Below, one piece after another: positions 3,675-32,072 of a DNA stretch of 43,034 bases. The DNA is taken from positions 1 through 43,034 of the forward strand of contig JAUCBJ010007280.1 in NCBI GenBank assembly GCA_032718475.1, given 5' to 3'. The stretch's first letter is position 1, and the number at the start of each line of letters is the position of its first letter. The notes under the pieces are model-generated. The model made no database searches. It was not told where the DNA came from and saw nothing but the letters and a program-made list of their open reading frames with translations. Both the position numbers and the translations under genes were made by a program. The DNA is from Nemertoderma westbladi. Taxonomy: Eukaryota > Animalia > Xenacoelomorpha.

Positions 3675-4169
3675 ATAATATTTGTAAGAAATGTTAAAAC
3701 TTATCTTCTTATGCCAATGTAGTAAGGGTATTAAAATATAATTAAATTAATTTGCACTATTAATGCTTCAGCTAAAAAATGATGCTAATCCTATGTAATA
3801 ATAAAAATAAGAATATTATTTTTAAGAAATTTCTACATATATCCAATACAAAATAATCAGCACAAGGATTCGTGGAATAATAATATAATACTACTGCAGT
3901 TGTATATTTTATTATGTTTATTGGCAACTCAACTATTTTCTGTCTATACCTGAGAGCTGATAAGGAAGTGTAGACTCAGCCAGCAGCGCTGCTCCTACAA
4001 GGCAAAGGCAGGCAGGAGGGATGTAGTCAAGTCAATAAATTCCGCATGGATGGAATTATATCTCAGACAGCCCTGCACTCCACCGTTCCTACAACTCCAC
4101 AGCTAGCTGCTGCAGCTCAGGCAGGAGTTGTTAATTTATCATTGCTTTTAATTACGCGACAAAATAATG

Positions 4170-4439: not shown

Positions 4440-5260
4440 ATGCATTTCAGAATTTTCCCCCTAATACCGGCATTATATAGTTTATAGAGGAGTCCGTTTA
4501 TCCTTATAGAATCAAAAGCTTTCTCTACATCTATAGTAGTTAAAACACCTGATCGACCATTTGATGTATCTTATTTTATCATACTTGTTAATTTATATAG
4601 ATAGTCTACTGTACTCGAGTTAGGTTTGCAGAATTGTGATTTGTCACAGTGTGGTCCAACTAAATCTGGAATTCTATGTTTGATCAACCGTTCAAAAAGT
4701 TTACCAAAATATGACGATATAGAGATAGGTCGGTATGAACCTGGGAATTTATAATCTCTTTTACCTGCTTTTTTGATAAACTTAATCATATTTAATGGCC
4801 ATGGCCATATATTATTCTCAAATGTTAGATTAAACAAATGTAAAGTGAGTGACCGCGCCCAAAAGCCCATAGATGTTATAAACTTTGGATGTATTCCATC
4901 ACAATCCATTGACTTGCCACTACATTTAATTAGTAACTCCTTCATTTTGAAAGCTTGATCAAGTTCGGTGCTCGATTCATTATCATCACTCCCATAGAAA
5001 TCAGAATGGTGATCTTCAATAAATTTGTCAACGTAATTCTTAAAAGGTTCATCGAAATTCTCTCCAGCCAAATTTTTTCCAGTGAAGAAAGTTTCAAACA
5101 TATACTTAGCCTTTTCCTCCTCATCAGTAATTATCTTTAATTATCTTTTTATTTATTAGTGAATCCACTCTTGAGTCAGCTTCTTTTTGAAATTGTGCTT
5201 GAATGATTTCCATAAGATTTTAGAGTTGGTTTTATTTAACTCCGATGCTTGTTTTTGAAA
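4440..5260 (-). pseudogene. Non-LTR retrotransposon RT N-terminal fragment (I/Jockey-like)
   Basis: ORF 4571-5101 has DGIHPKFI, IKKAGK..PGSYRPISISSYFGKLFERLI, and continues past a stop as IDVEKAFDSI. Confidence 0.85.
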
Positions 5261-7620: not shown

Positions 7621-8670
7621 AGCACCGCCCTCAATCCCCAGCCCACTGCGCCACTTGGTAGCCCCGCACCGTCCTCAATCCCCGGCCCACTGCGCCACTT
7701 GGTAGCCCCGCACCGCCCTCAATCCCCAGCCCACTGCACCACTTGGTAGCCCCGCACCGCCCTCAATCCCCAGCCCACTGCGCCACTTGGTAGCCCCGCA
7801 CCGTCCTCAATCCCCATCCCACTGCGCCACTTGGTAGCCCCGCACCGCCCTCAATCCCCAGCCCACTGCGCCACTTGGTAGCCCCGGACCGCCCTCAATC
7901 CCCAGCCCACTGCGCCACTTGGTAGCCCCGCACCGTCCTCAATCCCCAGCCCTCTGCACCACTTGGTAGCCCCGCACCGTCCTCAATCCCCAGCCTACTG
8001 CACCACTTGGTAGCCCCGCACCGTCCTCAATCCCCAGACCACTGCACCATTTGGTAGCCCCGCACCGTCCTCAATCCCCAGCCCTCTGCACCACTTGGTA
8101 GCCCCGCACCGCCCTCAATCCCCAGCCCACTGCACCACTTGGTAACCCCGCACCGTCCTCAATCCCCAGCCCACTGCAACACTTGGTAGCCCCGCACCGT
8201 CCTCAATCCCCAGCCCTCTGCACCACTTGGTAGCCCCGCACCGTCCTCAATCCCCAGCCCACTGCACCACTTGGTAGCCCCGCACCGTCCTCAATCCCCA
8301 GCCCTCTGCACCACTTGGTAGCCCCGCACCGTCCTCAATCCCCAGCCCACTGCACCACTTGGTAGCCCCGCACCGTCCTCAATCCCCAGCCCTCTGCACC
8401 ACTTGGTAGCCCCGCACCGCCCTCAATCCCCAGCCCACTGCACCACTTGGTAGCCCCGCACCGCCCTCAATCCCCAGCCCACTGCACCACTTGGTAGCCC
8501 CGCACCGTCCTCAATCCCCAGCCCACTGCACCACTTGGTAACCCCGCACCGTCCTCAATCCCCAGCCCACTGCGCCACTTGGTAGCCCCGCACCGTCCTC
8601 AATTCCCAACCCCCACTGCGCCACTTGATAGCCCCGCACCACCCTCAATATCCAGCCCACTGCGCCACTT
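7621..8670. repeat. 44-bp C-rich minisatellite array 1 (~24 units)
   Basis: Unit CAGCCCACTGC(G/A)CCACTTGGTAGCCCCGCACCG(T/C)CCTCAATCCC repeated head to tail. Confidence 0.97.
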
Positions 8671-9400
8671 GGTCTGCATTGATCGCTGCAACTTTAACTC
8701 CCAGGTCAAACGCCTGCTATACTCGACCCCCAATGCGAGACTCGCACGTCGCCGGAATCTCAAAAACTGCCAGGTTTTTCAGTGTTTTCGATGCCTCCTC
8801 CGGATACTGGCAGGTCCCCCTCGATGTACCAGCTCCTCACGTGTTTGCGAACCCCTGGGGCCAGTACAATCACTCGAGAAATGCAATGAGTCTCATCATC
8901 ATATCGGGGATGAATATAATCGGCGGGACTTTCTGGCCTGGTAAAGGAGGTGGATGATGTCCTGCTCTTTGATGATACATGAGCAGCATATTGACTCTAT
9001 CCATTCATGCATTCATTCCTTCAACGATGCATGGAGTCTGGCATCTTCCTACATCCAGGGAAAGTACTACTGGCCCTCCCAGAGGTTCAGTTTATGGGCT
9101 ATATTGTGAGCGAGTCCCGCATGACCGCAAGAAGGTCCATGCAATATCGGCCTTCCCTCGTCCTACAAATATTACTGACTAAACTCTCGTACCAAGTCCT
9201 TCAAAACCGGGGGTCTTGGACCATCCCCGCCCTTGATGTCGGCCACGCGGTTCGCATACAGCACCCGACATCTCAACGATCAGACAAGGTAGTAATTGTG
9301 AGTGCCAACCTCTTCAAGGAAGTATATCGTCTGTTTACCATCTGGCCGAACTCTCACCCGCAACCAGCGCCACATCCTCCGGGACACGTCAGCACCCCCG
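8671..9400 (+). pseudogene. Heavily deleted Gypsy (Mag-like) pol: RT pieces fused to integrase C-terminus
   Basis: VCID..NFNSQVKR, ARFFSVFDASSGYWQVPLD, VDDVLLF, VQFMGYIV, KVHAISAFPRPTNITD, then LDVGHAVRIQHP across shifting frames. Confidence 0.85.
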
Positions 9401-9565
9401 AATTCTAACTCACCCATGGTAACGACCCCCAGCAATAGCAATTGCCCCCCACTATGAAACCCACATCATTCTCGTTTACGCTGATGCTGTTTCAAAGCCA
9501 CGCAAACGTGTCGACGGGCACCACAACTTATCGTATCGAGCACGTGTGCCCCCTCGCATGACGTT

Positions 9566-11046
9566 TTGGTAGCCCCGCACCGCCCTCAATCCCCAGCCCA
9601 CTGCGCCACTTGGTAGCCCCGCACCGTCCTCAATCCCCATCCCACTGCGCCACTTGGTAGCCCCGCACCGCCCCCAATCCCCAGCCCACTGCGCCACTTG
9701 GTAGCCCCGCACCGCCCTCAATCCCCAGCCCACTGCGCCACTTGGTAGCCCCGCACCGCCCTGAATCCCCAGCCCACTGCACCACTTGGTAACCCCGCAC
9801 CGTCCTCAATCCCCAGCCCACTGCACCACTTTGTAGCCCCGCACCGTCCTCAATCCCCAGCCCTCTGCACCACTTGGTAGCCCCGCACCGCCCTCAATCC
9901 CCAGCCCACTGCACCACTTGGTAGCCCCGCACCGTCCTCAATCCCCAGCCCACTGCACCACTTGGTAGCCCCGCACCGTCCTCAATCCCCAGCCCACTGC
10001 GCCACTTGGTAGCCCCGCACCGCCCACAATCCCCACCCCACTGCACCACTTGGTAGCCCCACACCGTCCTCAATCCCCAGCCCACTGCACCACTTGGTAG
10101 CCCCGCACCGTCCTCAATCCCCAGCCCACTGCGCCACTTGGTAGCCCCGCACCGTCCTCAATCCCCAGCCCACTGCACCACTTGGTAGCCCCGCACCGTC
10201 CTCAATCCCCAGCCCACTGCGCCTCCTCAATCCCCAGCCCACTGCACCACTTGGTAGCCCCGCACCGTCCTCAATCCCCAGCCCACTGTGCCACTTGGTA
10301 GCCCCGCACCGTCCTCAATCCCCAGCCCTCTGCACCACTTGGTAGCCCCGCACCGTCCTCAATCCCCAGCCCACTGCACCACTTAGTAGCCCCGCACCGT
10401 CCTCAATCCCCAGCCCACTGCACCATTTGGTAGCCCCGCACCGTCCTCAATCCCCAGCCCTCTGCACCACTTGGTAGCCCCGCACCGCCCTCAATCCCCA
10501 GCCCACTGCACCACTTGGTAACCCCGCACCGTCCTCAATCCCCAGCCCACTGCACCACTTGGTAGCCCCGCACCGTCCTCAATCCCCAGCCCTCTGCACC
10601 ACTTGGTAGCCCCGCACCGTCCTCAATCCCCAGCCCACTGCACCACTTGGTAGCCCCGCACCGTCCTCAATCCCCAGCCCTCTGCACCACTTGGCAGCCC
10701 CGCACCGTCCTCAATCCCCAGCCCACTGCACCACTTGGTAGCCCCGCACCGTCCTCAATCCCCAGCCCTCTGCACCACTTGGTAGCCCCGCACCGCCCTC
10801 AATCCCCAGCCCACTGCACCACTTGGTAGCCCCGCACCGCCCTCAATCCCCAGCCCACTGCACCACTTGGTAGCCCCGCACCGTCCTCAATCCCCAGCCC
10901 ACTGCACCACTTGGTAACCCCGCACCGTCCTCAATCCCCAGCCCACTGCGCCACTTGGTAGCCCCGCACCGTCCTCAATCCCCAACCCCCACTGCGCCAC
11001 TTGATAGCCCCGCACCACCCTCAATATCCAGCCCACTGCGCCACTT
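9566..11046. repeat. 44-bp minisatellite array 2 (~33 units)
   Basis: Same unit as array 1, ending in the same two degenerate terminal units. Confidence 0.97.
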
Positions 11047-11266
11047 GGTCTGCATTGATCTCTGCAACTTTAACTCCCAGGTCAAACGCCTGCTATACTC
11101 GACCCCCAATGCGAGACTCGCACGTCGCCGGAATCTCAAAAACTGCCAGGTTTTTCAGTGTTTTCGATGCCTCCTCCGGATACTGGCAGGTCCCCCTCGA
11201 TGTACCAGCTCCTCACGTGTTTGCGAACCCCTGGGGCCAGTACAATCACTCGAGAAATGCAATGAG
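11047..11266 (+). pseudogene. Second copy of the Gypsy RT fragment, cut off by the Polinton terminus
   Basis: Near-identical to 8671-8890; identity stops after ...GCAATGAG where AGTAGT begins. Confidence 0.9.
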
Positions 11267-12480
11267 AGTAGTATGCTAAACACCGGGATTAAGACAGTGT
11301 CTGCCATAGTCTACCATGTTAAAGAATTTGCCGAACGGCTCTTGCCCCGCCTACTTACTATAATTACTATTGTTGCCCCACCCACTTACTATGGTTACCA
11401 TGGTTACCATTCTTGCCCCGCCTACTTACTATGATTACCATTGTTGCCCCCCCCCACCCACTTACTATGGTTACCATGGTTACCATTGTGCATATGTGAC
11501 ATATGCGGTATAAGGCCAGTTCGCAGACGGAAGTAATTTAATTAATTCGTGTCTACTGGTTGGCGTTTGACCTTGAACCGCAATAGGTAAAACCCAATAT
11601 AGTAAGTGGGTTGCAGACGTTTGTTATAAAAGTCTTTAACATGATAGACTATTACAGACGCAACAACTAAAAAAGGTGAATAAACACAGACTAACGGTGG
11701 CTACCAATATTGTCAAGCAATAAGTTGTGGGGGCGAGCCGCGAAGTGAGAATAAGGTATTTATAATATTATTTGAATTTGATTATTCTACCTATGGGGCG
11801 AGCCATGAAGTGAGTGATAGCATCGAAGTAAGGTTATTGTATTTATACTTATCACTACGCAACAAGTTGTGGGGCGAGCCGCGAAGTGAGTATAAGGTTA
11901 TAGTATTTATAATAATATTATTTTAATTTGATTATTCTACCTATGGGGCGAGCCATGAAGTGAGTGATAGCATCGAAGTAAGGTTATTGTATTCAACTAA
12001 CGACAGCCTATCACTACGCAACAACCTATGGGGCGAGCCATGAAGTGAGTGATAGCATCGAAGTAAGGTTATTGTATTTATACTTATCACTACGCAACAA
12101 GTTGTGGGGCGAGCCACGAAGTGAGTATAAGGTTATAGTATTTATAATATTATTTTAATTTGATTATTCTACCTATGGGGCGAGCCATGAAGTGAGTGAT
12201 AGCATCGAAGTAAGGTTATTTTAATTTGATCATTTACTTAAATCCGACGCCGCTTTATTTAAAAATTTCTCCCACCACCCCACCCGCTTATCCCGCTATC
12301 ACCATCTGCCCAATCTTCTTCCGCATCCACAACATCATTACCACTACCACCATCACCCGACATCCCCTTCATTCCTTTCCAACATTGAAAAAATGGGGCG
12401 AGCCATGAAGCGAGTGAAGCCTTAGCATATGGGCACCATTAATGAGTTGTGGGGCGAGCTACGGCGAAGTATGGTTATTG
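11267..12480 (+). repeat. Left terminal non-coding repeat region with modular subrepeats
   Basis: AGTAGT start, TTGCCCC..ACTTACTAT subrepeats, then about 9 copies of a GGGGCGAGCC(A/G)(T/C)GAAG(T/C)GAG core. Confidence 0.85.
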
Positions 12481-12567
12481 TATTTATAATATTATCATTA
12501 TACCAACAAATTTGATTATTATACTTAAATCCATCACCATTACTATTTTAAAATTTCTTCCACCAAC

Positions 12568-13011
12568 TCACCCATTTATCCCACTATCCTCGCTATCTAC
12601 ATCCACCGCATTATTACCATTACCACCACCACCATCACCCAACACCTCCATCATTCCTTCTAACATCTCAATCCTTTCTTTCATCACCTTCTCCTGCGCA
12701 CACCTCTCAGCTTCCCTCGCTCTCCTAACCCCCTCAGCCTCCATCTCCAACTCCCAATCTTCACCCCACGCGCTGTTCTTTCTCGCCTCTTCCTCCAAAT
12801 AATGGTTCTTCTCTATCTCCTCCCACTTGTTTCTCGGATTTAACAACCTCTCCAACCGCGCTTCTTCTTTCTCCCTCGCATACATAGCCACCAATATTGC
12901 TTCATTCTCCTTCGCTATTTCAGCCGCCACATCCACATCTTCCTCCTCTTCCACCTCTTCCTCCGCATCCATATCTACTTCATCCACCACAAGTTCATTT
13001 TCCCCCAACAT
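12568..13011 (-). CDS. Acidic, Glu-rich coiled-coil protein (147 aa), left copy; function unknown
   Basis: Intact ATG-initiated ORF, identical in translation to the 22216-22659 copy; TATAAATA upstream. Confidence 0.65.
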   Translation of the reverse strand: MLGENELVVDEVDMDAEEEVEEEEDVDVAAEIAKENEAILVAMYAREKEEARLERLLNPRNKWEEIEKNHYLEEEARKNSAWGEDWELEMEAEGVRRAREAERCAQEKVMKERIEMLEGMMEVLGDGGGGNGNNAVDVDSEDSGING

Positions 13012-13243
13012 ATCCGCGTATAATAAATAAAATAATGTAATAAATATATAAATATGTGTATAATAATGTATAATACTATAAATAAATTTATATAATATTT
13101 ATTTCAATCGATAATTCATTATACCAACAAATAATTTACCACCACAAAATAATAATAATAATTTAACCGTGCCCGGCTCGTTGCGGCGACACCGCCTACG
13201 AACATGGCCTATTTATATAATAAAGTTTCTACCGCTCGAAGAT

Positions 13244-14536
13244 TCACACTGAATGTTTATTCTTCTTTATTTGAGGTTGCCCATTAGTCTCGATTTCATT
13301 GAAAATGTCTTCACCATCATCCGTATCATTGACGATGTCCTCTTCAAAGTCGCTGATATCTTCATACTCATAGCTAGGTGTTTTATTCACGATGAGATCA
13401 ATTTTTCGCTTAAGCGCTTGTTCTTTCATGGCTTTAGGTGTTTTCATCTTCATCTGAGCGCTCACACCCCCAACGAGGGTATCAATATCCTTATAATCAT
13501 TCTTTTTTTCAGTGCTGTCTACCTGTTCATTTTCTGCAATCGCAGGCAACCAGATTTTTTTCTCATCCATTTTCTTAGCAGCGACTTTTACTGCTTCGGA
13601 CGTCTTCAGCTGACTAGCATTGTTCGGCATTTCCACTTTCATTAGTTCCTCGTCCGCTAATTCATCAATCGCAGCCTCAACAACTAACTTTTTAATCGGT
13701 AGAAACTCACACCCAGACGGAATATCGCGGTCCGCGTACTTCTGTAATTGCTTAATTATCTCGACATTTGCGTTGTTTCGAGGGATGAAAATAACCTTGG
13801 TGTCGAAGTTGTGGGACAAATATATCCCGTTTTTGTTAACGGTTGATGTGTACCTCATACTAACCTCATCGATATTCTCGTTAACATTCTTATCTATGTT
13901 AAAGTCGAGCAAACAGAATTCATCCGCTCTGAGATTCAACCCATCGTAATATATAACACCCTTCCGCTGTCTACCTATATCATCCGCTTCCCAAACGCCG
14001 ACAAATCGTTGCCCTTCAAAGTCGTAGATATATCCAATGTACCCACAATCTTCGAACTCCATAAAATTCTCATCATGAATTTCCTTCTTTTTTGGTTCAA
14101 TACGGGAAAGAACGACTTTGCCGTAGATGTTTTGTAAGACATCTAGAATTTTTCGCGAGATAAAAATTGATGCGCCGTTTTTCCCAATGCGTAAGTACGC
14201 ATGATTTATCGGTGTTATAAGCAAATTGCCTCGGGTGTATTCCTTGTAATATTCAACGGCTATTTTATTATAATTGAGGAAGTCAAACAGGAATCTTATG
14301 TTCTGGTAAGTAAGACTTACCGATTCTTGTACGACGTTGCGTCCTTTGGTATCACCCCAACGGTTGAATCGAACGTATTTCCCGTTAAATGCTTTTATTT
14401 CTATTCCTTCCCCCAAACACTCGAGGCCCCACACACTCTTACCTGTAATCACCGATACGTATGGGGCGGGCGCACTATCAGTAGAGCTACCGCTTAATGA
14501 CATCATTTTTGGTTGTGATGGTTTCGCAGATTCCAT
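13244..14536 (-). CDS. ~430-aa protein with tandem PC4/PUR-like repeats and acidic C-terminus (putative ssDNA-binding protein or coactivator), intact left copy
   Basis: Longest closed ORF in the track (first ATG 14536). Segments AFNGKYVRFNRW...SVSLTYQNIRFL and DFEGQRFVGVWE...DGLNLRADEFCLL follow the PC4 pattern FxGKxYVDIR...GISLxxEQWxxL. The ORF itself is solid; the fold call is by eye. Confidence 0.55.
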   Translation of the reverse strand: MESAKPSQPKMMSLSGSSTDSAPAPYVSVITGKSVWGLECLGEGIEIKAFNGKYVRFNRWGDTKGRNVVQESVSLTYQNIRFLFDFLNYNKIAVEYYKEYTRGNLLITPINHAYLRIGKNGASIFISRKILDVLQNIYGKVVLSRIEPKKKEIHDENFMEFEDCGYIGYIYDFEGQRFVGVWEADDIGRQRKGVIYYDGLNLRADEFCLLDFNIDKNVNENIDEVSMRYTSTVNKNGIYLSHNFDTKVIFIPRNNANVEIIKQLQKYADRDIPSGCEFLPIKKLVVEAAIDELADEELMKVEMPNNASQLKTSEAVKVAAKKMDEKKIWLPAIAENEQVDSTEKKNDYKDIDTLVGGVSAQMKMKTPKAMKEQALKRKIDLIVNKTPSYEYEDISDFEEDIVNDTDDGEDIFNEIETNGQPQIKKNKHSV

Positions 14537-15046
14537 CAACAAATTTTGTGAAATATTAATAATTAAGTGTAAAATTACAATAATATCGCGCTATACAATG
14601 TGCGAAAAATATGATAATGAATGAATTAATCTGAATGAGAAAATAAAGTATTTTACGACGTATTTATAATATAATGATGGGCTATCGGGAAATCGGGTAT
14701 ATTTTAAGCACTCAACCGGATTAATTGCTATTGTCCTGAGAAGAATTTTTTTGAAATACTTCCTATAAATTTCAAGGGAAATATTTATTTACGCTTAAAT
14801 TGGTTGACGTAAGTGGTGACAGCTTTGCAGTAGCGATTAATGCGACCGATAGAAATTTCTATAGACACACCCCAGAATTTCTACAGAATATTACTCACGG
14901 TTAAATTGATTGACGTCAACTGTATTAACTGTGTAGCTTCTTAGAAGTTTCATAATTTTAAGCATGAGCGAATTTAATTTAATGTCGGGAATCGCAGGGT
15001 TCAGGAAAGTCAATTCCATTTTTGTCTGAATTTCTAGAGCCTAAAC

Positions 15047-15577
15047 TTAGTAAGTTGTCTTCTGGGTTGTAATGTATTGACCAAAACGCGTCAAGACCAA
15101 GTATGTTATTTTTTTTAAAGACGATAAGCCAAATATATTTATTAAATCCCCGTAGAATTGGAAATAGCGTCCTTTCATAGAATGCAAATGTATTTTCGAT
15201 GTGTGCTTGTGATAATTAAACTTAACATCGGAGAAACCATGATGTGCTATGGAATTTTTTTTCAAATATACGGTAATATAATTTATAATTGACTCAACGG
15301 AAGCATACAGCCCATGATTAAGATCGATTTCAATAAGATTATATGGAGCAATATGGAATGGTATATCCGCATCTTCCATGTATTCGCCAATTTTAATTCC
15401 GGATCTTTGCTCAATATTCCTATAAGTTGATACATATTGTATTTCTTTTAGGCCCACAACCCAATCCGTGGTAATGGGAATAGGTTTGGACAATTCAATT
15501 GTAAAATCGCTCAGGGTGTTGTTAGGATATTTATCTAGACTGGCGTCAGAAGTCAATGTCAAATGTAAGCGATCCAT
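15047..15577 (-). CDS. Polinton minor capsid (penton/PX) protein, N-terminal part only, left copy
   Basis: LTLTSDASLDKYPNNTLSDFTIELSKPI...WVVGLKEIQY matches the Maverick penton N-terminus; the conserved C-terminal YxDI...PLLR part is absent. Confidence 0.8.
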   Translation of the reverse strand: MDRLHLTLTSDASLDKYPNNTLSDFTIELSKPIPITTDWVVGLKEIQYVSTYRNIEQRSGIKIGEYMEDADIPFHIAPYNLIEIDLNHGLYASVESIINYITVYLKKNSIAHHGFSDVKFNYHKHTSKIHLHSMKGRYFQFYGDLINIFGLSSLKKITYLVLTRFGQYITTQKTTY

Positions 15578-16119
15578 TATTGTATCCTATCAACCCACCG
15601 GTGCTTCGCATAACCAACGAATTTTACCAGGTATTGTTTTTTCCCTGTTTTTTTGTTTATTACTTTTTCCTTGATTACTTTTTCAATTGGTAAGAACTCA
15701 AACGGTTCTTTCAACTTTTTCATTTCATATTGATAAAATGTCCCTTTAATAACACGCCTATTCACATCCATAACTTCGTACATAGGGTACGGCTCTCGAT
15801 CCATCCGTATTCTAGAAATTTCGAAAATTTCCCTGGTATAGTTAGGTGTATATCCTTTGGAAAATGGCGTCGCGGTTAAACTCAGACGCACTTTATCGCC
15901 AACTTTGAAATAAACTCGACGCTGTTCGCGGCGTTTCTTTTTATTGGGATGGCCCACACTGCCATATAGTTTTAAAAATGAGTCAGTTTCATTATTTTTA
16001 TTGACTGAGTTTGGCGCCATACCAATGGTTCTATGTATTGAATTATTATATGCAACCAATATTTTTGGCAATATACTCATCCATTCTCTATTCTGTCTCC
16101 TCGTGAAAATTCTGTACAT
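15577..16119 (-). CDS. Polinton c-integrase C-terminal half with chromodomain-like end, no DDE core, left copy
   Basis: YNNSIHRTIGMAP, FKVGDKVRLS, FSKGYTPNYTREIF, IKGTFYQYEM, IEKVI...QYLVKFVGY. Confidence 0.9.
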   Translation of the reverse strand: MYRIFTRRQNREWMSILPKILVAYNNSIHRTIGMAPNSVNKNNETDSFLKLYGSVGHPNKKKRREQRRVYFKVGDKVRLSLTATPFSKGYTPNYTREIFEISRIRMDREPYPMYEVMDVNRRVIKGTFYQYEMKKLKEPFEFLPIEKVIKEKVINKKTGKKQYLVKFVGYAKHRWVDRIQ

Positions 16120-16221
16120 TTCTTATTATTATTATAAGTATCCGTTAATAAAGTAGAAACTAGATACAACTTCTTAAAATTTCCGAGGCTAATCTCGTTA
16201 TTTTTCATCGTTATATATCAT

Positions 16222-16348
16222 TTAGCGGGCGAGGAACCCATGAAAGTGGAAATGCTGAACAACGCTAGACAGCTGCAGACGTCCGAGGCAGTAAAAGTCA
16301 CCGCTAAGAAAATAGGTAAGAAAAAAATCTGGTTGCCAACGATTGCGG
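16222..16348 (+). pseudogene. Diverged third fragment of the PC4-like gene C-terminal region
   Basis: MKVEMLNNARQLQTSEAVKVTAKKIGKKKIWLP aligns with MKVEMPNNASQLKTSEAVKVAAKKMDEKKIWLP. Confidence 0.85.
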
Positions 16349-16364
16349 CGATTGCCAACGATCA

Positions 16365-17801
16365 AACGCCAATCACTCACTTCATGGCTTGCCCCATAAG
16401 TCTTTTTTTTTTACCTTTTTTAGTTGTTGCGTCATAACCTTACTTCGATCACTCACTTCATGGCTCGCCCCATAGGTAGAATAATCAAATTAAAATAATA
16501 TTATAAATACTATAACCTTAACCCATATGCTAAGGCTTCACTCGCTTCATGGCTCGCCCCCCATTTTTTCATCAAATCACGAAATCATGTCCTATGGGGC
16601 GAGCCATGAAGTGAGTGATAGCATCGAAGTAAGGTTATGACGCAACAACTAAAAAAGGTAAATAAACACAGACTTATGGGCGAGCCATGAAGTGAGTGAT
16701 TGGCGTTTGACCTTGAACCGCAATAGGTAAAGATTCGCCACCAAAAATAACGCAAAAAATTTTTTTTGAAATTTTTGGTCAGAAAAAAAAAACATGGAAA
16801 AAGTATATTTTTAAAAAGATTTTATGTCTTTGCCTATGGTCAGAGAATTATCCAACTCTGTAACTTGGCAATCGCTCAAATCCATTCAGCTGAAAGGCAC
16901 AGTAGAGTAAACTAAAGTAAATTCCCTATACAATGTTCTGAAGGGGAGACTGACAGAGAGTAATCCAACCAATAAGGGCGAGCCATGAAGTGAGTGATAG
17001 CATCGAAGTAAGGTTATGACGCAACAACTAAAAAAGGTAAATAAACGCAGACTTATGGGGCGAGCCATGAAGTGAGTGATTGGCGTTTGACCTTGAACCG
17101 CAATAGGTAAAACCCAATATAGTAAGTGGGTTGCAGACGTTTGTTATAAAGTCTTTAACATGATTTCGTGATTTGATGAAAAAATGGGGGCGAGCCATGA
17201 AGCGAGTGAAGCCTTAGCATACGGTATGGGTTAAGGTTATAGTATTTATAATATTATTTTAATTTGATTATTCTACCTATGGGGCGAGCCATGAAGTGAG
17301 TGATAGCATCGAAGTAAGGTTATGACGCAACAACTAAAAAAGGTAAATAAACACAGACTTATGGGGCGAGCCATGAAGTGAGTGATTGGCGTTTGACCTT
17401 GAACCGCAATAGGTAAAACCCAATATAGTAAGTGGGTTGCAGACGTTTGTTATAAAGTCTTTAACATGATTTCGTGATTTGATGAAAAAATGGGGCGAGC
17501 CATGAAGCGAGTGAAGCCTTAGCATATGGGTTAAGGTTATAGTATTTATAATATTATTTTAATTTGATTATTCTACCTATGGGGCGAGCCATGAAGTGAG
17601 TGATAGCATCGAAGTAAGGTTATGACGCAACAACTAAAAAAGGTTTAAAAATTTCTCCCACCACCTCACCCGCTTATCCCGCTATCACCATCCGCCCAGT
17701 CTTCTTCCTCATCCTCAGCATCATTACCACCACCACCATCACCCAACATCCCCATCATTCCTTCCAACATTGAAAAAATGGGGCGAGCCATGAAGCGAGT
17801 G
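16365..17801. repeat. Internal array of TIR-type modular repeats, with a ~300-bp higher-order unit and an orientation switch near 16590
   Basis: Three cores in reverse orientation (16375-16560), then about 10 forward; 16976-17280 is repeated at 17281-17580 and partly after 17581. Confidence 0.9.
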
Positions 17802-18218
17802 TTTTACCCCGACGATAAAACTGCACAAGAATATTATTAAATATCTCCGGCTCATATTTCACCTCCACATTATAATAATTATCTAAAAATGAAACCCGAC
17901 CGTTTTCATTAATTTGCTATAGTCTATGTCTAGATTGTTAATAATATAAGTTTGGCTATTGATTGAAATAAAAGTTAGTTTATAATCAGTATGCTTATAT
18001 ATATACTTAATAATTTTTATTATTTTAGGCGATTTACCGAGTACAGTGACCTTACCGCTCGGGAAAAAGAGACACGTCCATCCGCAAATTTTGGCGATAT
18101 ATTGAAAAGGCTTTAAGATGAGTTTTCCATTTCGAATTCGTTTAGCCAGCACATCGAATGATATGCACCCATCAACCAACCTCAAACTTATATTACTGTT
18201 GACAACACTAAAAGACAT
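17802..18218 (-). pseudogene. Divergent TATA-binding protein-like gene, 3'-truncated, one homopolymer frameshift
   Basis: VVNS..L / LAKRIRNG...KPF / TCLFFPSGKVTVLG match TBP repeat 1 (QNIV / IALRARNA...KRF / TALIFSSGKMVCTG). SINS and, after adding one T to the T5 run near 17885-17889, VKYEPEIF match repeat 2 (YEPELF). Confidence 0.8.
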
Positions 18219-18231
18219 CGCAATCCGCTAT

Positions 18232-18700
18232 TAATTCAATACATAGAACCATTGGTATGGCGCCAAACTCAGTCAATAAAAATAATGAAACTGACTCATT
18301 TTTAAAACTATATGGCAGTGTGGGCCATCCCAATAAAAAGAAACGCCGCGAACAGCGTCGAGTTTATTTCAAAGTTGGCGATAAAGTGTGTCTGAGTTTA
18401 ACCGCGACGCCATTTTCCAAAGGATATACACCTAACTATACCAGGGAAATTTTCGAAATTTCTAGAATACGGATGGATCGAGAGCCGTACCCTATGTACG
18501 AAGTTATGGATGTGAATAGGCGTGTTATTAAAGGGACATTTTATCAATATGAAATGAAAAAGTTGAAAGAACCGTTTGAGTTCTTACCAATTGAAAAAGT
18601 AATCAAGGAAAAAGTAATAAACAAAAAAACAGGGAAAAAACAATACCTGGTAAAATTCGTTGGTTATGCGAAGCACCGGTGGGTTGATAGGATACAATAA
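18232..18700 (+). pseudogene. Polinton integrase C-terminal fragment, right copy
   Basis: Reverse complement of 15577-16045 with an R>C change; ORF 18257-18700. Confidence 0.88.
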
Positions 18701-19231
18701 TGGATCGCTTACATTTGACATTGACTTCTGACGCCAGTCTAGATAAATATCCTAACAACACCCTGAGCGATTTTACAATTGAATTGTCCAAACCTATTCC
18801 CATTACCACGGAATGGGTTGTGGGCCTAAAAGAAATACAATATGTATCAACTTATAGGAATATTGAGCAAAGATCCGGAATTAAAATTGGCGAATACATG
18901 GAAGATGCGGATATACCATTCCATATTGCTCCATATAATCTTATTGAAATCGATCTTAATCATGGGCTGTATGCTTCCGTTGAGTCAATTATAAATTATA
19001 TTACCGTATATTTGAAAAAAAAATTCCATAGCACATCATGGTTTCTCCGATGTTAAGTTTAATTATCACAAGCACACATCGAAAATACATTTGCATTCTA
19101 TGAAAGGACGCTATTTCCAATTCTACGGGGATTTAATAAATATATTTGGCTTATCGTCTTTAAAAAAAATAACATACTTGGTCTTGACGCGTTTTGGTCA
19201 ATACATTACAACCCAGAAGACAACTTACTAA
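18700..19231 (+). pseudogene. Penton N-terminal ORF, right copy, with an A-run frameshift near 19020
   Basis: Matches the left copy (TTEW vs TTDW) until the homopolymer; TAATG stop/start overlap with integrase. Confidence 0.8.
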
Positions 19232-19359
19232 GTTTAGGCTCTAGAAATTCAGACAAAAATGGAATTGACTTTCCTGAACCCTGCGATTCCCGACATTAAA
19301 TTAAATTCGCTCATGCTTAAAATTATGAAACTTCTAAGAAGCTACACAGTTAATACAGT

Positions 19360-19616
19360 TGACGTCAATCAATTTAACCGTGAGTAATATTCTGTAGAAA
19401 TTCGGGGGTGTGTCTATAGAAATTTCTATCGGCCGCATTAATCGCCGCTGCAAAGCTGTCACCACTTACGTCAACCAATTTAAGCGTAAATAAATATTTC
19501 CCTTGAAATTTATAGGAAGTTTTTCAAAAAAATTCTCTCACGACAATAGCAATTAATCCGGTTGAGTGCTTAAAATATACCCGATTTCCCGATAGCCCAT
19601 CATTATATTATAAATA
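19360..19616 (+). promoter_or_regulatory. Candidate Pol II promoter of the PC4-like gene (mirrored in the left arm)
   Basis: TGACGTCA (19360-19367) and TTACGTCA (19466-19473) in a degenerate duplicated block; TATAAATA at 19609-19616, about 130 bp before ATG 19741. Confidence 0.4.
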
Positions 19617-19740
19617 CGTCGTAAAATACTTTATTTTCTCATTCAGATTAATTCATTCATTATCATATTTTTCGCACATTGTATAGCCCGATATTATTGT
19701 AATTTTACACTTAATTATTAATATTTCACAAAATTTGTTG

Positions 19741-21983
19741 ATGGAATCTGTGAAACCATCACAACCAAAAATGATGTCATTAAGCGGTAGCTCTACTGAT
19801 AGTGCGCCCGCCCCATACGTATCGGTGATTACAGGTAAGAGTGTGTGGGGCCTCGAGTGTTTGGGGGAAGGAATAGAAATAAAAGCATTTAACGGGAAAT
19901 ACGTTCGATTCAACCGTTGGGGTGATACCAAAGGACGCAACGTCGTACAAGAATCGGTAAGTCTTACTTACCAGAACATAAGATTCCTGTTTGACTTCCT
20001 CAATTATAATAAAATAGCCTTTGAATATTACAAGGAATACACCCGAGGCAATTTGCTTATACTACTAGGATCGGCATGCTGCATTGCAGCTGCATTTTTA
20101 AGAATGCTGTGCTGGCTTGTCAACAAAATTGCGCCGCCACAACTCCCTATCACCCATGACATTTGCTAGATCATCCGCATCTTTAAGGCCAGTGTCCTTT
20201 AAGATGCGTCTCAAGAAAGTCATGGGCTGTCCACCATGCTTATTCACTCCATGAGGCTGCCAAAGTACAAGATTATGCACTGGCTGGTCCTCACGGCGAA
20301 AGCAATGTCCTGCAAAGCGGAGGCGATTTTGTTCTAGTGTCAAGCTTGGGGGAACCAATGAGACACCTCCAATGTTATATAGTGTCTGGTTGGAGATGTG
20401 TGCATTGTACTTGACACAATGTACCCGGCGTAGCATTCTTGTGAATGTGCCATCCAGAGATTTGGTGTCCTCAGCAGTTAGAGCCCAGCATGGACTCCCG
20501 TTGAGGAGTACTGGAACTACTGCTGCTCTAAATAATCGGACCTTAAGTTTCCGATTAATTCTAGGTGACTTCCAAATCCTGGAAAGCCTATTCAAGGCTG
20601 CCCATGCCTTTCCCTTACGTATTCGAAGGTCCTCACCTGACTTCCGGATCCATGATCCCAGGTAACAGAAGTCGTCCACATGCTCAAGCATACCATCCTT
20701 TGAGCTTATGCTCATCCGATCAGAGACTTGCTGAGGACTTTCAAAGTTAACTGTCAGAATTTTGGTCTTTCTGGAGTTAATAAAAAGACCAACACTAGAA
20801 GCAGCATGTTCTAATGAGCTGAGGAGCCGCTGGGCTCCCTCTAATGATTCTGAGAGTACTCCTAAGTCATCAGCAAAGTCTAGATCAGTTAGGTACTTGG
20901 CAGGATTTCCTCGACTTCTGGAGCCAGTAGGTGGAGTTATCATCACCCCATCATCATTATGATGATCTAAGGACATGCGTAGAACATAGTCAACCACAAT
21001 AATTTGCTTATAACACCAATAAATCATGCATACTTACGCATTGGGAAAAACGGCGCATCAATTTTTATCTCGCGAAAAATTCTAGATGTCTTACAAAACA
21101 TCTACGGCAAAGTCGTTCTTTCCCGTATTGAACCAAAAAAGAAGGAAATTCATGATGAGAATTTTATGGAGTTCGAAGATTGTGGGTACATTGGATATAT
21201 CTACGACTTTGAAGGGCAACGATTTGTCGGCGTTTGGGAAGCGGATGATATAGGTAGACAGCGGAAGGGTGTTATATATTACGATGGGTTGAATCTCAGA
21301 GCGGATGAATTCTGTTTGCTCGACTTTAACATAGATAAGAATGTTAACGAGAATATCGATGAGGTTAGTATGAGGTACACATCAACCGTTAACAAAAACG
21401 GGATATATTTGTCCCACAACTTTGACACCAAGGTTATTTTCATCCCTCGAAACAACGCAAATGTCGAGATAATTAAGCAATTACAGAAGTACGCGGACCG
21501 CGATATTCCGTCTGGGTGTGAGTTTCTACCGATTAAAAAGTTAGTTGTTGAGGCTGCGATTGATGAATTAGCGGACGAGGAACTAATGAAAGTGGAAATG
21601 CCGAACAATGCTAGTCAGCTGAAGACGTCCGAAGCAGTAAAAGTCGCTGCTAAGAAAATGGATGAGAAAAAATCTGGTTGCCTGCGATTGCAGAAAATGA
21701 ACAGGTAGACAGCACTGAAAAAAAGAATGATTATAAGGATATTGATACCCTCGTTGGGGGTGTGAGCGCTCAGATGAAGATGAAAACACCTAAAGCCATG
21801 AAAGAACAAGCGCTTAAGCGAAAAATTGATCTCATCGTGAATAAAACACCTAGCTATGAGTATGAAGATATCAGCGACTTTGAAGAGGACATCGTCAATG
21901 ATACGGATGATGGTGAAGACATTTTCAATTAAATCGAGACTAATGGGCAACCTCAAATAAAGAAGAATAAACATTCAGTGTGA
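19741..21983 (+). pseudogene. PC4/PUR-like gene, right copy, disrupted
   Basis: Colinear with 13244-14536 but split by an RTE insertion, an A-run frameshift near 21670 and GAA>TAA at 21930. Confidence 0.88.
20062..21000 (-). mobile_element. 5'-truncated RTE-clade LINE (family B), 939 bp
   Basis: LDFADDL, FCYLGSWI, RLRFAGHCFR; TAG tail; 12-bp TSD AATTTGCTTATA (20050-20061, 21001-21012); empty site visible in the left arm. Confidence 0.95.
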
Positions 21984-22215
21984 ATCTTCGAGCGGTAGAA
22001 ACTTTATTATATAAATAGACCATGTTCGTAGGCGGTGTCGCCGCAACGAGCCGGGCGCGGTTAAATTATTATTATTATTTTGTGGTGGTAAATTATTTGT
22101 TGGTATAATGAATTATCGATTGAAATAAATATTATATAAATTTATTTATAGTATTATACATTATTATACACATATTTATATATTTATTACATTATTTTAT
22201 TTATTATACGCGGAT

Positions 22216-22659
22216 ATGTTGGGGGAAAATGAACTTGTGGTGGATGAAGTAGATATGGATGCGGAGGAAGAGGTGGAAGAGGAGGAAGATGTGGATGTGG
22301 CGGCTGAAATAGCGAAGGAGAATGAAGCAATATTGGTGGCTATGTATGCGAGGGAGAAAGAAGAAGCGCGGTTGGAGAGGTTGTTAAATCCGAGAAACAA
22401 GTGGGAGGAGATAGAGAAGAACCATTATTTGGAGGAAGAGGCGAGAAAGAACAGCGCGTGGGGTGAAGATTGGGAGTTGGAGATGGAGGCTGAGGGGGTT
22501 AGGAGAGCGAGGGAAGCTGAGAGGTGTGCGCAGGAGAAGGTGATGAAAGAAAGGATTGAGATGTTAGAAGGAATGATGGAGGTGTTGGGTGATGGTGGTG
22601 GTGGTAATGGTAATAATGCGGTGGATGTAGATAGCGAGGATAGTGGGATAAATGGGTGA
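22216..22659 (+). CDS. Acidic coiled-coil protein (147 aa), right copy
   Basis: Same translation as the left copy; TATAAATA at 22010-22017. Confidence 0.65.
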   Translation: MLGENELVVDEVDMDAEEEVEEEEDVDVAAEIAKENEAILVAMYAREKEEARLERLLNPRNKWEEIEKNHYLEEEARKNSAWGEDWELEMEAEGVRRAREAERCAQEKVMKERIEMLEGMMEVLGDGGGGNGNNAVDVDSEDSGING

Positions 22660-22749
22660 GTTGGTGGAAGAAATTTTAAAATAGTAATGGTGATGGATTT
22701 AAGTATAATAATCAAATTTGTTGGTATAATGATAATATTATAAATACAA

Positions 22750-23839
22750 TAACCTTACTTCGCCGTAGCTCGCCCCACAACTCATTAATGGCGCCCATAT
22801 GCTAAGGCTTCACTCGCTTCATGGCTCGCCCCATTTTTTCAATGTTGGAAAGGAATGAAGGGGATGTCGGGTGATGGTGGTAGTGGTAATGATGTTGTGG
22901 ATGCGGAAGAAGATTGGGTAGATGGTGATAGCGGGATAAGCGGGTGGGGTGGTGGGAGAAATTTTTAAATAAAGCGGCGTCGGATTTAAGTAAATGATCA
23001 AATTAAAATAACCTTACTTCGATGCTATCACTCACTTCATGGCTCGCCCCATAGGTAGAATAATCAAATTAAAATAATATTATAAATACTATAACCTTAT
23101 ACTCACTTCGTGGCTCGCCCCACAACTTGTTGCGTAGTGATAAGTATAAATACAATAACCTTACTTCGATGCTATCACTCACTTCATGGCTCGCCCCATA
23201 GGTTGTTGCGTAGTGATAAGTATAAATACAATAACCTTACTTCGATGCTATCACTCACTTCATGGCTCGCCCCCCCCCCCCCCCCCCCCATAGGTAGAAT
23301 AATCAAATTAAAATAATATTATAAATACCTTATTCTCACTTCGCGGCTCGCCCCCCACAACTTATTGCTTGACAATATTGGTAGCCGCCGTTAGTCTGTG
23401 TTTATTCACCTTTTTTTAGTTGTTGCGTCTGTAATAGTCTATCATGTTAAAGACTTTATTAAATAAATTGGAGATGAGCTGTTGCAACTGTAATTAAAGG
23501 TGTAATATTATGGGTTTGTTCACTTTATAAAACAAACGTCTGCAACCCACTTACTATATCGGGTTTTACCTATTGCGGTTCAAGGTCAAACGCCGACCGG
23601 TAGACACGAATTAATTAAATTACTTCCGTCTGTGGACTGGCCTTATACCGCGTATGTCACATATACACAGTGGTGACATATGTTACATATGCACAATGGT
23701 AACCATAGTAACCATAGTAAGTGGGTGGGGCAACAATAGTAATCATAGTAAGTAGGCGGGGCAAGAGCCGTTCGGCAAATTCTTTAACATGGTAGACTAT
23801 GGCAGACACTGTCACAATCCCAGTGTTTAGCATACTACT
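22750..23839 (-). repeat. Right terminal repeat region
   Basis: Reverse complement of the left terminus with indels and about 7 core repeats; ends ACTACT. Confidence 0.85.
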
Positions 23840-25365: not shown

Positions 25366-25450
25366 CTAAAAAAATTACACTTTATTAAATATTGCATTAA
25401 TTAATTAATTGTAGGATAATTGTAGTAATTAATTGTCCCGGAATTACACC

Positions 25451-25880
25451 GGATGAGCATAAGCTCAAAGGATGGTATGCTTGAGCATGTGGACAACTTC
25501 TGTTACCTGGGATCATGGATCCGGAAGTCAGGTGAGGACCTTCGAATAAGTAAGCGAAAGGCATGGGCAGGCAGCCTTGATTGAATAGGCTTTCCAGGAT
25601 TTGGAAGTCACCGAGAATTAATCGGAAACTTAAGGTCCGATTTTTTAGAGCAGCAGTAGTTCCAGTACTCCTCTATATGAGTCCATGCTGGGATCTAACT
25701 GCAGAGGACACCAAATCTATGGATGGCACATTCACAAGAATAGATGAAAAGAAGATTCGGATGATCTAGCAAAAGTCATGGGTGATGTGGAGTTGTGGCG
25801 GCGCAATTTTGTCGACAAGCCGACACAGCATTCTTAAAAGTGCAGCTGCATTGCAGCATGCCAATCATAGTAGTAGTAGT
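25451..25880 (+). mobile_element. Internally deleted RTE family B fragment
   Basis: Near-identical to the reverse complement of 20065-20175 and 20435-20717; ends in (TAG)4. Confidence 0.9.
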
Positions 25881-30826: not shown

Positions 30827-31484
30827 CCGGTTACATTAAAGTGTCTGACTGACTTGTATTATAGCAATGTTATATATCTTTAATATATTTTGGGATTAGA
30901 ACATAATACCGCATATTGGGATTACGTTATTGGTTTATATTTATCTTTGACGAATTGTTTTTGATTAATATTAAAATAAATATTGGGAAAGTGTCTGCAT
31001 CCCGTTATAATAAGTGAACTTACAACATTGACTGTTTTACAAAGTCTATATTCTATGCATTGTGTATTGTGTATTCAACCTTTGTAAACAGTGTGCCTCC
31101 TACACTATGAGCATTCTGTTAGTGTTCTAATCAGTGTGGGTTTTATACACGTCCACCCTCTCTTATAAGTGCGGATCCCCACCCATAGTAGTATTTGCTT
31201 AAAGCAAAGGGCAATGAGTTAATTTATATAATAGTATAGTACAGATTGCCAATTAACACTTTGATGTAATACTTCTCTGTATAACAGTAATTACAATGGT
31301 GATAACCTGTTTAATTAATTATCAAATAATTTAGAACAAATCAGCTGATTACAAATTAGATAATTTAAATAAGAGGAAGTAAAATAATTTTTAGAACTTT
31401 AGTCTATTGTCTCTCGTATTATTCGTTATTTGTTATTATCTTCGCTTTTTCTTTCGATTTTGTTTATCTGCCTGACCGACCTAG

Positions 31485-32072
31485 ATTTTTGGGATTTTCA
31501 ACCTCGCGACCCTGTTTTACTCCAACCGACCACGATTTTTGGACTCTCGTTGTCGACCCATTTTCACTCCAACCAACCACGATTTTTGGACTCTCAAGCT
31601 GTCGTCCCATTTTCACTCCAACCAACCACGATTTTTGGACTCTCAAGCTGTCGACCCATTTTCACTCCAACCAACCACGATTTTGGGACTCTCAAGCTGT
31701 CGACCCATTTCTACTCCAACCAACCACGATTTTTGGACTCTCAAGCTGTCGACCCATTTTCACTCAAACCAACCACGATTTTTGGACTCTCAAGCTGTCG
31801 ACCCATTTTCACTCCAACCAACCACGATTTTTGGACTCTCGCTGTCGACCCATTTTCACTCCAACCAACCGCGATTTTTGGACTCTCAAGCTGTCGACCC
31901 ATTTTCACTCAAACCAACCACGATTTTTGGACTCTCAAGCTGTCGACCCATTTTCACTCCAACCAACCACGATTTTTGGACTATCGCTGTCGACCCATTT
32001 TCACTCGAACCAACCACGATATTTGGAGTCTCAACCTGTCGATCCTTTTTCACTCTAACCAACCACGATTTT
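31485..32072. repeat. 49-bp minisatellite (~12 units, some 47 bp)
   Basis: Unit TTTTCACTCCAACCAACCACGATTTTTGGACTCTCAAGCTGTCGACCCA. Confidence 0.97.

What the first reader, a model, noticed from the sequence alone, without database searches (positions are those of the whole stretch)
17802..18218. A Polinton-like element carrying its own divergent TATA-binding protein gene
Seen: the minus-strand ORF aligns by eye with the TBP core in the right order and spacing (VVNS; LAKRIRNG..KPF; CLFFPSGKVTVLG; SINS; then YEPEIF after a one-base correction in a T run). It is intronless, lacks an N-terminal extension, and is cut by a TIR-type repeat just before the second IFxSGK. Known: these positions correspond to both DNA-contacting Asn and three of the four intercalating Phe of TBP; TBP is not among the core Polinton genes (pPolB, integrase, ATPase, protease, major and minor capsid), though TBP homologues occur in large DNA viruses. 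Inference: the parent virus encodes its own basal transcription factor, or a decoy for host TFIID. It is far too divergent to be a recent host retrocopy.
Basis: partly seen in the sequence, partly recalled or inferred. Interest (0 to 1): 0.88.

Follow-up and report, generated by a model that had tools for sequence, protein, structure and literature searches.

The report
Broken mini-TBP gene in palindromic Polinton
A broken, heavily altered gene that likely encoded a small TATA-binding protein sits in the middle of a mirror-duplicated, defective virus-like transposon (a Polinton); such genes are already noted in related viruses, and this one keeps the two residues predicted to grip the host's TFIIB.

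Summary
The motifs are there, in order and near-canonical spacing. The TBP likeness is weak but beyond chance: both pieces together reach 11.3 bits on a TBP profile (1 of 5,000 shuffles as high), and 28 of 30 language-model neighbours are TBP clusters. Pfam, PDB, phmmer and an alignment-free fold found no TBP. The copy is dead: frame break near 17884, second lobe cut at 17801, promoter side cut about 11 bp upstream. It lies in the unique centre of a 12,573-bp palindromic Polinton derivative (AGTAGT ends, no target duplication, integrase 3' part, no polymerase, capsid, ATPase or protease found). The gene is multicopy in three studies of the same organism, and other copies run on past both cuts. 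That it belongs to the parent Polinton is likely, not shown; no intact neighbourhood was seen. It is not a recent retrocopy (23-32% identity to 120 eukaryotic TBPs). A TBP gene in Polinton-like viruses is already labelled in PMC8502044 (Fig. 5 legend), and this scan found Polinton TBPs before on other DNA (8 notes shown). Verdict: real, new member of a known kind; function untested.

The parts
11267..23839 (.). Palindromic, non-autonomous Polinton/Maverick derivative, 12,573 bp, 5'-AGTAGT...ACTACT-3'; no 6-bp target duplication
   Evidence: end motif as in PMC8097293
11267..12008 (+). Left outer terminal repeat with sub-repeats
   Evidence: 25 mismatches in 548 aligned bases and 11 gaps against the right end
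23219..23839 (-). Right outer terminal repeat
12009..16048 (.). Left inner arm
   Evidence: 9 mismatches in 2,218 and 12 in 1,832 aligned bases against the right arm, 3 one-base gaps
18229..23218 (.). Right inner arm (inverted copy), interrupted by a LINE fragment
17883..18218 (-). TBP-like gene, piece 1 (111 aa): whole first lobe and start of second lobe; Asn7, Phe38, Phe52, Asn87
17802..17880 (-). TBP-like gene, piece 2 (other frame): YEPEIF stirrup; cut at 17801
16222..17801 (.). Centre mosaic of TIR sub-repeats and short gene pieces, 80-100% like the left arm; 16732-16965 unmatched
   Evidence: (1,266 of 1,753 bases of 16049-17801 covered)
15577..16122 (-). 3' part of a Polinton integrase with chromodomain-like end; partial inverted copy at 18233-18700 (+)
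   Evidence: E 1.5e-26 to 4.8e-22 against 10 of 10 Polinton-type loci L241-L250; their integrases carry rve and Chromo in the four loci scanned
15047..15577 (-). Likely minor capsid protein, N-terminal part (named by position after the integrase; inferred)
   Evidence: E 3e-9 and 4e-9 to the ORF after the integrase in L249 and L243, 2 of 10 loci; gene order in PMC8097293
13244..14539 (-). 431-aa ORF of unknown family; right copy broken by the LINE
   Evidence: no family
12568..13011 (-). 147-aa acidic ORF; right copy 22216-22659 (+)
20062..21000 (-). 5'-truncated LINE with reverse transcriptase, in the right arm only, 12-bp target duplication (20050-20061, 21001-21012)
   Evidence: RVT_1 E 1.7e-5; borders

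Best explanation
The ORF is a broken, doubly cut copy of a likely mini-TBP gene that probably belongs to the Polinton family whose rearranged, palindromic remnant surrounds it. Shown: TBP motif order, two frames, both cuts, Polinton ends and integrase piece, multicopy state. Inferred: the intact gene is an accessory gene of the parent element; its product is a compact two-lobed saddle (helix 2 region about 8 residues shorter, one hairpin 3 shorter) that would bind an AT-rich promoter box through the two Asn and the aromatic wedge residues, and would recruit host TFIIB and RNA polymerase II through the kept E-x-E stirrup, acting as the element's own promoter-recognition factor, most likely for capsid/packaging genes. 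This copy does nothing: it was caught as a fragment when one end of the element was duplicated in inverted orientation and the centre was patched from terminal repeats and gene pieces; a LINE later entered the right arm.
For: Profile score above 4,999 of 5,000 shuffles, reversed sequence 0.1 bit, and the six best of 2,136 window tiles overlap the locus. A single-lobe profile finds two lobes in tandem; pairwise scores to three eukaryote-type TBPs are reached by 0, 0 and 2 of 1,000 shuffles. ESM Atlas: 28 of 30 hits in PF00352 clusters, best 0.93 with 194 shared features. With TBP rows, lobe 1 folds at pLDDT 65-86 per block and matches TBP chains first (circular). Contigs of four runs from three studies lie on the gene; they run on with unlike sequence at 17801 (X1, X2, X3) and 18232 (X3, X4), differ in length at the break (2,499 of 4,536, 3,345 of 3,345, 15,650 of 29,629 depth), and include a second type about 87% alike, as the integrase does (about 85%). 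GC3 0.35 matches integrase 0.37 and the next ORF 0.35. The two Glu are the TFIIB contacts named in PMC7221094 (passages).
Against: No Pfam hit at E<=1; no PDB sequence hit to TBP; hhalign probability 2.2%, E 0.022; 0 relatives at E<=0.001 among 1.84 billion representatives; alignment-free model pLDDT 47 with no TBP among listed matches. Atlas recognition 1654 is below 2300, where the tool calls a high score weak evidence. The profile was seeded with the YEPE motif, which favours piece 2. No contig links the gene to Polinton genes in its native place. 0 of 10 other Polinton-type loci gave a TBP hit (best E 0.088; most are partial contigs). Pro after the third Phe is absent and the fourth Phe cannot be seen. 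The two genes with upstream DNA in the window have ordinary TATAAATA boxes (13210-13217, 14661-14668), which host TBP could read.
Confidence: 0.62

Rival explanations
1. TBP-like gene of the Polinton family, but a decoy or repressor: it would bind TFIIB or TATA DNA unproductively and damp host (or the element's own early) transcription instead of starting transcription.
For: TFIIB-contact Glu pair kept while the rest is only 23-32% identical to cellular TBP; the element's retained genes have canonical TATA boxes that need no private factor.
Against: DNA-face residues (both Asn, aromatic wedges, SGK turn) are kept as well; characterised viral TBP mimics activate late genes (KSHV ORF24, PMC12529657 abstract).
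Confidence: 0.15
2. Real TBP-like gene, but from another multicopy element or endogenous virus, captured by chance in the rearranged centre.
For: Both joints are rearrangement points; contigs on the gene are 5-12 times deeper than the main contigs on the integrase and the next ORF in all four runs (table 8; the tool warns that depth cannot rank genes); 16732-16965 is also foreign to the arm.
Against: Neighbours on both sides are Polinton DNA and most of the centre derives from the element; composition and two-type divergence parallel the integrase; TBP genes are labelled in Polinton-like viruses.
Confidence: 0.15
3. Chance likeness: an unrelated small alpha/beta protein or non-coding AT-rich DNA.
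For: All library searches at standard thresholds are blank; scores are only 6-11 bits and tile margin is small (4.3-5.6 against 3.7).
Against: Eight anchors in order with near-canonical spacing across two frames, two lobes, an unguided language-model search that names TBP.
Confidence: 0.08

Closest known systems
TBP-labelled gene of MELD viruses with adintovirus-like PolB (PMC8502044 Fig. 5 legend; preprint 10.1101/697771)
   Same: TBP-like gene in a mid-size Polinton-type element.
   Different: Seen only as a legend label (passages and section 3.4 read; figure not held; supplement search found no TBP/TATA), in a section on non-animal datasets; no analysis or function given. Sequence not compared.
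Cellular TBP (Pfam PF00352; e.g. P0014, PDB 1cdw, 1ytb)
   Same: Two lobes, both Asn, Phe at three of four positions, FxSGK turn, YEPE stirrup, basic helix-2 spacing.
   Different: 23-32% identity against a median 93% among the cellular cores; no N-terminal extension; helix-2 region about 8 and a hairpin 3 residues shorter; no Pfam hit; broken and cut.
Viral TBP-like proteins of large dsDNA viruses (PMC7221094) and the herpesvirus TBP mimic ORF24 (PMC12529657)
   Same: Divergent viral TBP that keeps DNA-contact positions.
   Different: PMC7221094 states that viral TBPs have diverged at the TFIIB-contact positions and often come with their own TFIIB; ORF24 is a large protein with a section headed 'incompatible with direct TFIIB binding' (outline only). 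This small protein keeps E-x-E (11 of 29 viral rows of my motif-seeded set do too).
Intact Polintons/Mavericks (PMC8097293, PMC10748475)
   Same: (AGT)2//(ACT)2 ends, long TIRs, integrase followed by a likely minor capsid gene, size at the low end.
   Different: No target duplication, no polymerase, ATPase, protease or major capsid found; nearly the whole element is one inverted duplication.

Membership tests
TBP (PF00352) | Match to the Pfam model at its cut-off | tested here: not met
   0 families at E<=1 for either piece
TBP (PF00352) | Profile similarity beyond chance | tested here: met
   0 and 1 of 5,000 shuffles; piece 1 alone 19 and 3 of 5,000; 28 of 30 Atlas hits
TBP (PF00352) | Two tandem lobes | tested here: met
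   single-lobe profile gives two domains in order; lobe 2 is cut at 17801
TBP (PF00352) | Central Asn in each lobe | tested here: met
   Asn7 and Asn87; MAFFT placed Asn95 instead, the ungapped lobe comparison favours Asn87
TBP (PF00352) | Four intercalating Phe | tested here: inconclusive
   three positions present, fourth removed by the cut; first is another aromatic residue in most contigs
TBP (PF00352) | TFIIB-contact Glu pair in the lobe-2 stirrup | tested here: met
   YEPEIF; role from PMC7221094 passages
TBP (PF00352) | TBP saddle fold from an unbiased model | tested here: inconclusive
   alignment-free model too poor; TBP-guided model matches TBP but is circular
TBP (PF00352) | Binds TATA-type DNA and supports initiation | not testable with these tools
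   needs biochemistry
Polinton/Maverick | 5'-(AGT)2//(ACT)2-3' ends with terminal inverted repeats | tested here: met
   11267 and 23839; motif from PMC8097293
Polinton/Maverick | 5-8-bp (usually 6-bp) target site duplication | tested here: not met
   flanks differ
Polinton/Maverick | Retroviral-type integrase | tested here: met
   3' part only; hits 10 of 10 loci
Polinton/Maverick | Protein-primed DNA polymerase B | tested here: not met
   no hit in the window with ORFs of 10 loci at E<=1e-3; two of the four loci scanned carry DNA_pol_B_2
Polinton/Maverick | Packaging ATPase, protease, major capsid protein | tested here: not met
   no long unexplained ORF left inside the element
Polinton/Maverick | Minor capsid protein | tested here: inconclusive
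   matches the unnamed ORF after the integrase in 2 of 10 loci; name inferred from order
Polinton/Maverick | TBP-like gene lies inside intact copies of this family | not testable with these tools
   no assembly held; contigs too short

The most novel reading that the evidence does not exclude
The parent Polinton carries a one-gene transcription switch: a TBP of about 150 residues that reads the element's own promoter box and, unlike most viral TBPs and herpesvirus mimics, plugs straight into host TFIIB through a kept Glu pair, with no viral polymerase or viral TFIIB. That would be the smallest known viral route to a private RNA polymerase II programme and a handle on when Polintons make particles.
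Probability: 0.3. Interest if true: 0.7.

Novelty: new member of a known kind. Interest (0 to 1): 0.36.

Why it matters
How animal Polintons switch on capsid genes, and whether they make particles, is open. A TBP of their own would give a testable control point. This locus adds a distant member (no relative at E<=0.001 in 1.84 billion representatives) that keeps the TFIIB-contact pair. But the copy is dead and out of context, the gene type is already labelled in print, and other windows of this scan hold intact examples, so this locus is a poor place to study the mechanism.

Tried and rejected
Blank searches for the TBP-like piece: PDB sequences, word-index protein search (6 candidates, none scored), Pfam, 1.84 billion representatives, viral contigs (117 pattern matches, 0 confirmed; 33), phage records, prokaryote genomes (600 matches, 0 confirmed; 52), scan notes by sequence. 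Alignment-free fold and two fold searches: no TBP listed; the model is too poor to count against. hhalign 2.2%. Integrase piece in viral contigs by its own words: none; found by a degenerate motif (85; variant 86 gave 0). TIR 17-mer in metagenomes: 18 loci, none matches the window beyond about 30 bases, so chance. Minor-capsid-like ORF in the protein index: 29 candidates, none scored. PC4 likeness of the 431-aa ORF, seen by eye, not supported. No RNA holder listed. Assembly fold-back artefact rejected: 21 mismatches between inner arms and a LINE with target duplication in one arm. Recent retrocopy rejected. Rows dropped: 61 of 120 archaeal loci kept as complete 165-215-aa ORFs; 88 of 267 profile hits kept after length filter and dereplication. 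No tree was built (about 135 positions at under 32% identity, no host TBP or TRF2 at hand). No complex prediction (stirrup and lobe 1 lie in different frames; no host TFIIB). Copy number is uncalibrated and the element's end joints were not examined in the runs. Literature: five searches; no dedicated study of a Polinton TBP among the listed papers; no TBP/TATA in the main text of PMC11161782 or 10.64898/2026.06.19.733378, no TBP in PMC10748475, none in the held supplement of PMC11131425. Figures, bioRxiv supplements and most subscription papers were not seen and may name such genes.

Full report
Observation. At 17801 a copy of terminal-region DNA (12128-12416, 88%) takes over, before the place of the second IFxSGK. 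About 11 bases upstream of the ATG the right arm of the element begins (18229), so the promoter side is cut as well. Nothing like 17802-18228 lies elsewhere in the window.

Is it TBP? Standard searches say nothing: Pfam, PDB sequences, the word index and phmmer against 1.84 billion representatives gave no TBP or relative; hhalign against 37 TBPs gave 2.2%, E 0.022; an alignment-free model had pLDDT 47 and listed no TBP. An unguided language-model search placed 28 of 30 hits in PF00352 clusters (best 0.93, 194 shared features; recognition 1654, in the range the tool calls weak). I then built profiles from 61 of 120 archaeal loci and from 51 archaeal, 8 eukaryotic and 29 viral TBPs (88 of 267 hits). 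Both pieces scored together reach 9.3 and 11.3 bits; 0 and 1 of 5,000 shuffles do as well, the reversed sequence 1.8 and 0.1. Piece 1 alone, which lacks the motif that seeded the set, is reached by 19 and 3 of 5,000. The six best of 2,136 six-frame tiles of the window overlap the locus, by a small margin. A single-lobe profile finds two lobes in order, and pairwise scores to three eukaryote-type TBPs are reached by 0, 0 and 2 of 1,000 shuffles. Spacings between eight anchors are 23/22, 8/8, 14/17, 9/9, 26/34, about 33/26 and 5/5 (window/canonical). With 31 TBP rows behind it, piece 1 folds at mean pLDDT 70 and Foldseek ranks TBP chains first (E 0.003, TM about 0.6), with several viral TBPs in the viral library; this is circular and shows compatibility only. 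I put TBP homology at about 0.9. Identity to 120 eukaryotic TBPs is 23-32%, against a median 93% among their cores, so it is no recent retrocopy; host TBP and TRF2 were not at hand.

The element. AGTAGT ends at 11267 and 23839 bound 12,573 bp; this end motif is the commonest in vertebrate Mavericks (PMC8097293, passages). The flanks show no target duplication. Almost all of it is one inverted duplication: inner arms 12009-16048 and 18229-23218 differ at 21 of 4,050 aligned bases; the outer ends at 25 of 548. A LINE fragment with a 12-bp target duplication lies in the right arm only, which argues against an assembly fold-back. Each arm carries an acidic ORF, a 431-aa ORF, a likely minor-capsid start and the 3' part of an integrase. 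The integrase piece hits 10 of 10 Polinton-type viral loci (E <= 5e-22), the next ORF 2 of 10; the four loci scanned carry rve integrase and ATPase and, in some, protease, capsid or polymerase families. With the ORFs of all ten loci, no polymerase, ATPase, protease or major capsid was found in the window. The 2.2-kb centre is mostly a patchwork of the element's own repeats, followed by the TBP-like fragment. So this is a non-autonomous Polinton derivative, not an intact member.

Other copies. Four runs of one organism (three studies) hold the stretch (one may be the window's source). Their contigs lie on the TBP-like gene, continue with unlike sequence at 17801 and 18232, and many differ in length at the break, so the cuts and the break are features of this copy and not of the whole family. 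A second type about 87% alike exists for this gene, as one about 85% alike does for the integrase. Most contigs replace the first Phe codon with another aromatic residue. Contigs on the gene are 5-12 times deeper than the main ones on the integrase; the tool warns against ranking genes by depth and I have no calibration. No contig shows the gene's native neighbours, and no assembly is held. None of the 10 other Polinton-type loci gave a TBP hit (best E 0.088; mostly partial), in line with an accessory gene.

Mechanism. Shown: anatomy, breaks, multicopy state. Inferred: the intact product is a compact TBP that binds AT-rich DNA through both Asn and the aromatic wedges. It keeps the two stirrup Glu that contact TFIIB, which PMC7221094 (passages) reports as diverged in viral TBPs; 11 of 29 viral rows in my motif-seeded set keep them too. 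I therefore favour a promoter-recognition factor working with host TFIIB and polymerase II, probably for capsid and packaging genes; the late-gene part is taken from earlier notes of this scan and from the analogy with KSHV ORF24 (PMC12529657, abstract and outline) and could not be tested, since those genes are absent. The two arm genes with upstream DNA have ordinary TATAAATA boxes. Rivals: decoy (0.15), capture from another element (0.15), chance (0.08).

What is known. The legend of Fig. [quoted passage not shown] Five literature searches listed no dedicated study; unseen figures, supplements and subscription papers may hold one. This scan has 28 notes with these words, 8 shown, on Polinton TBPs in other genomes, and one on a palindromic Polinton derivative; these are unchecked leads. 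One of them reports lost partner surfaces, whereas this copy keeps the Glu pair.

Verdict. Observation confirmed; interpretation partly supported; new member of a known kind; interest 0.36, because the copy is dead and out of context although the underlying question is a good one.

Noticed in passing
window 11731-12414, 16376-17799, 22813-23353: A 19-base motif occurs 27 times, all inside the element (0 expected), often close to TATAAATA; 22 of 29 TATAAATA matches lie in the element (5.2 expected in the window). In the terminal repeats the boxes point outwards. Possible core promoters or replication-origin repeats.
   Followed up: partly
window 11267-12008 vs 23219-23839: The outermost ends differ by 4.6% with 11 gaps while the inner arms differ by about 0.5%, and there is no target duplication: the two ends may come from different insertions, with the inner duplication younger.
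   Followed up: partly
window 12259-12416, 17644-17801: Decayed copies (about 80%) of the 3' part of the acidic ORF sit in the terminal region and the centre.
   Followed up: no
window 13244-14539: 431-aa ORF looks by eye like tandem PC4-type repeats; no tool supported it. The complete Polinton-type locus L249 has a terminal PC4-like gene (11376-11897, E 0.0034, below cut-off).
   Followed up: partly
window 16732-16965: 234 bases in the centre with no match to the left arm.
   Followed up: no
window 10962-11266: Left flank looks like an LTR-retrotransposon reverse transcriptase remnant (RVT_1 E 0.2 only), cut by the element's end.
   Followed up: no
window 25450-25875: Second copy of the LINE that entered the right arm, 91-93% alike.
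   Followed up: no
window 7622-11049 and 31484-32072: GC-rich 44-bp satellite in three arrays (about 57 units) next to the element, and a 49-bp array of 12 units.
   Followed up: no
window 3214-3693 and 4571-5140: Further reverse transcriptase pieces on the minus strand (E 1.5e-8 and 0.0015).
   Followed up: no
L237:1144-1779: A divergent TBP-like ORF in a 4.9-kb viral contig, two genes before a 476-aa ORF that looks by eye like a terminase large subunit; unrelated to the window.
   Followed up: no
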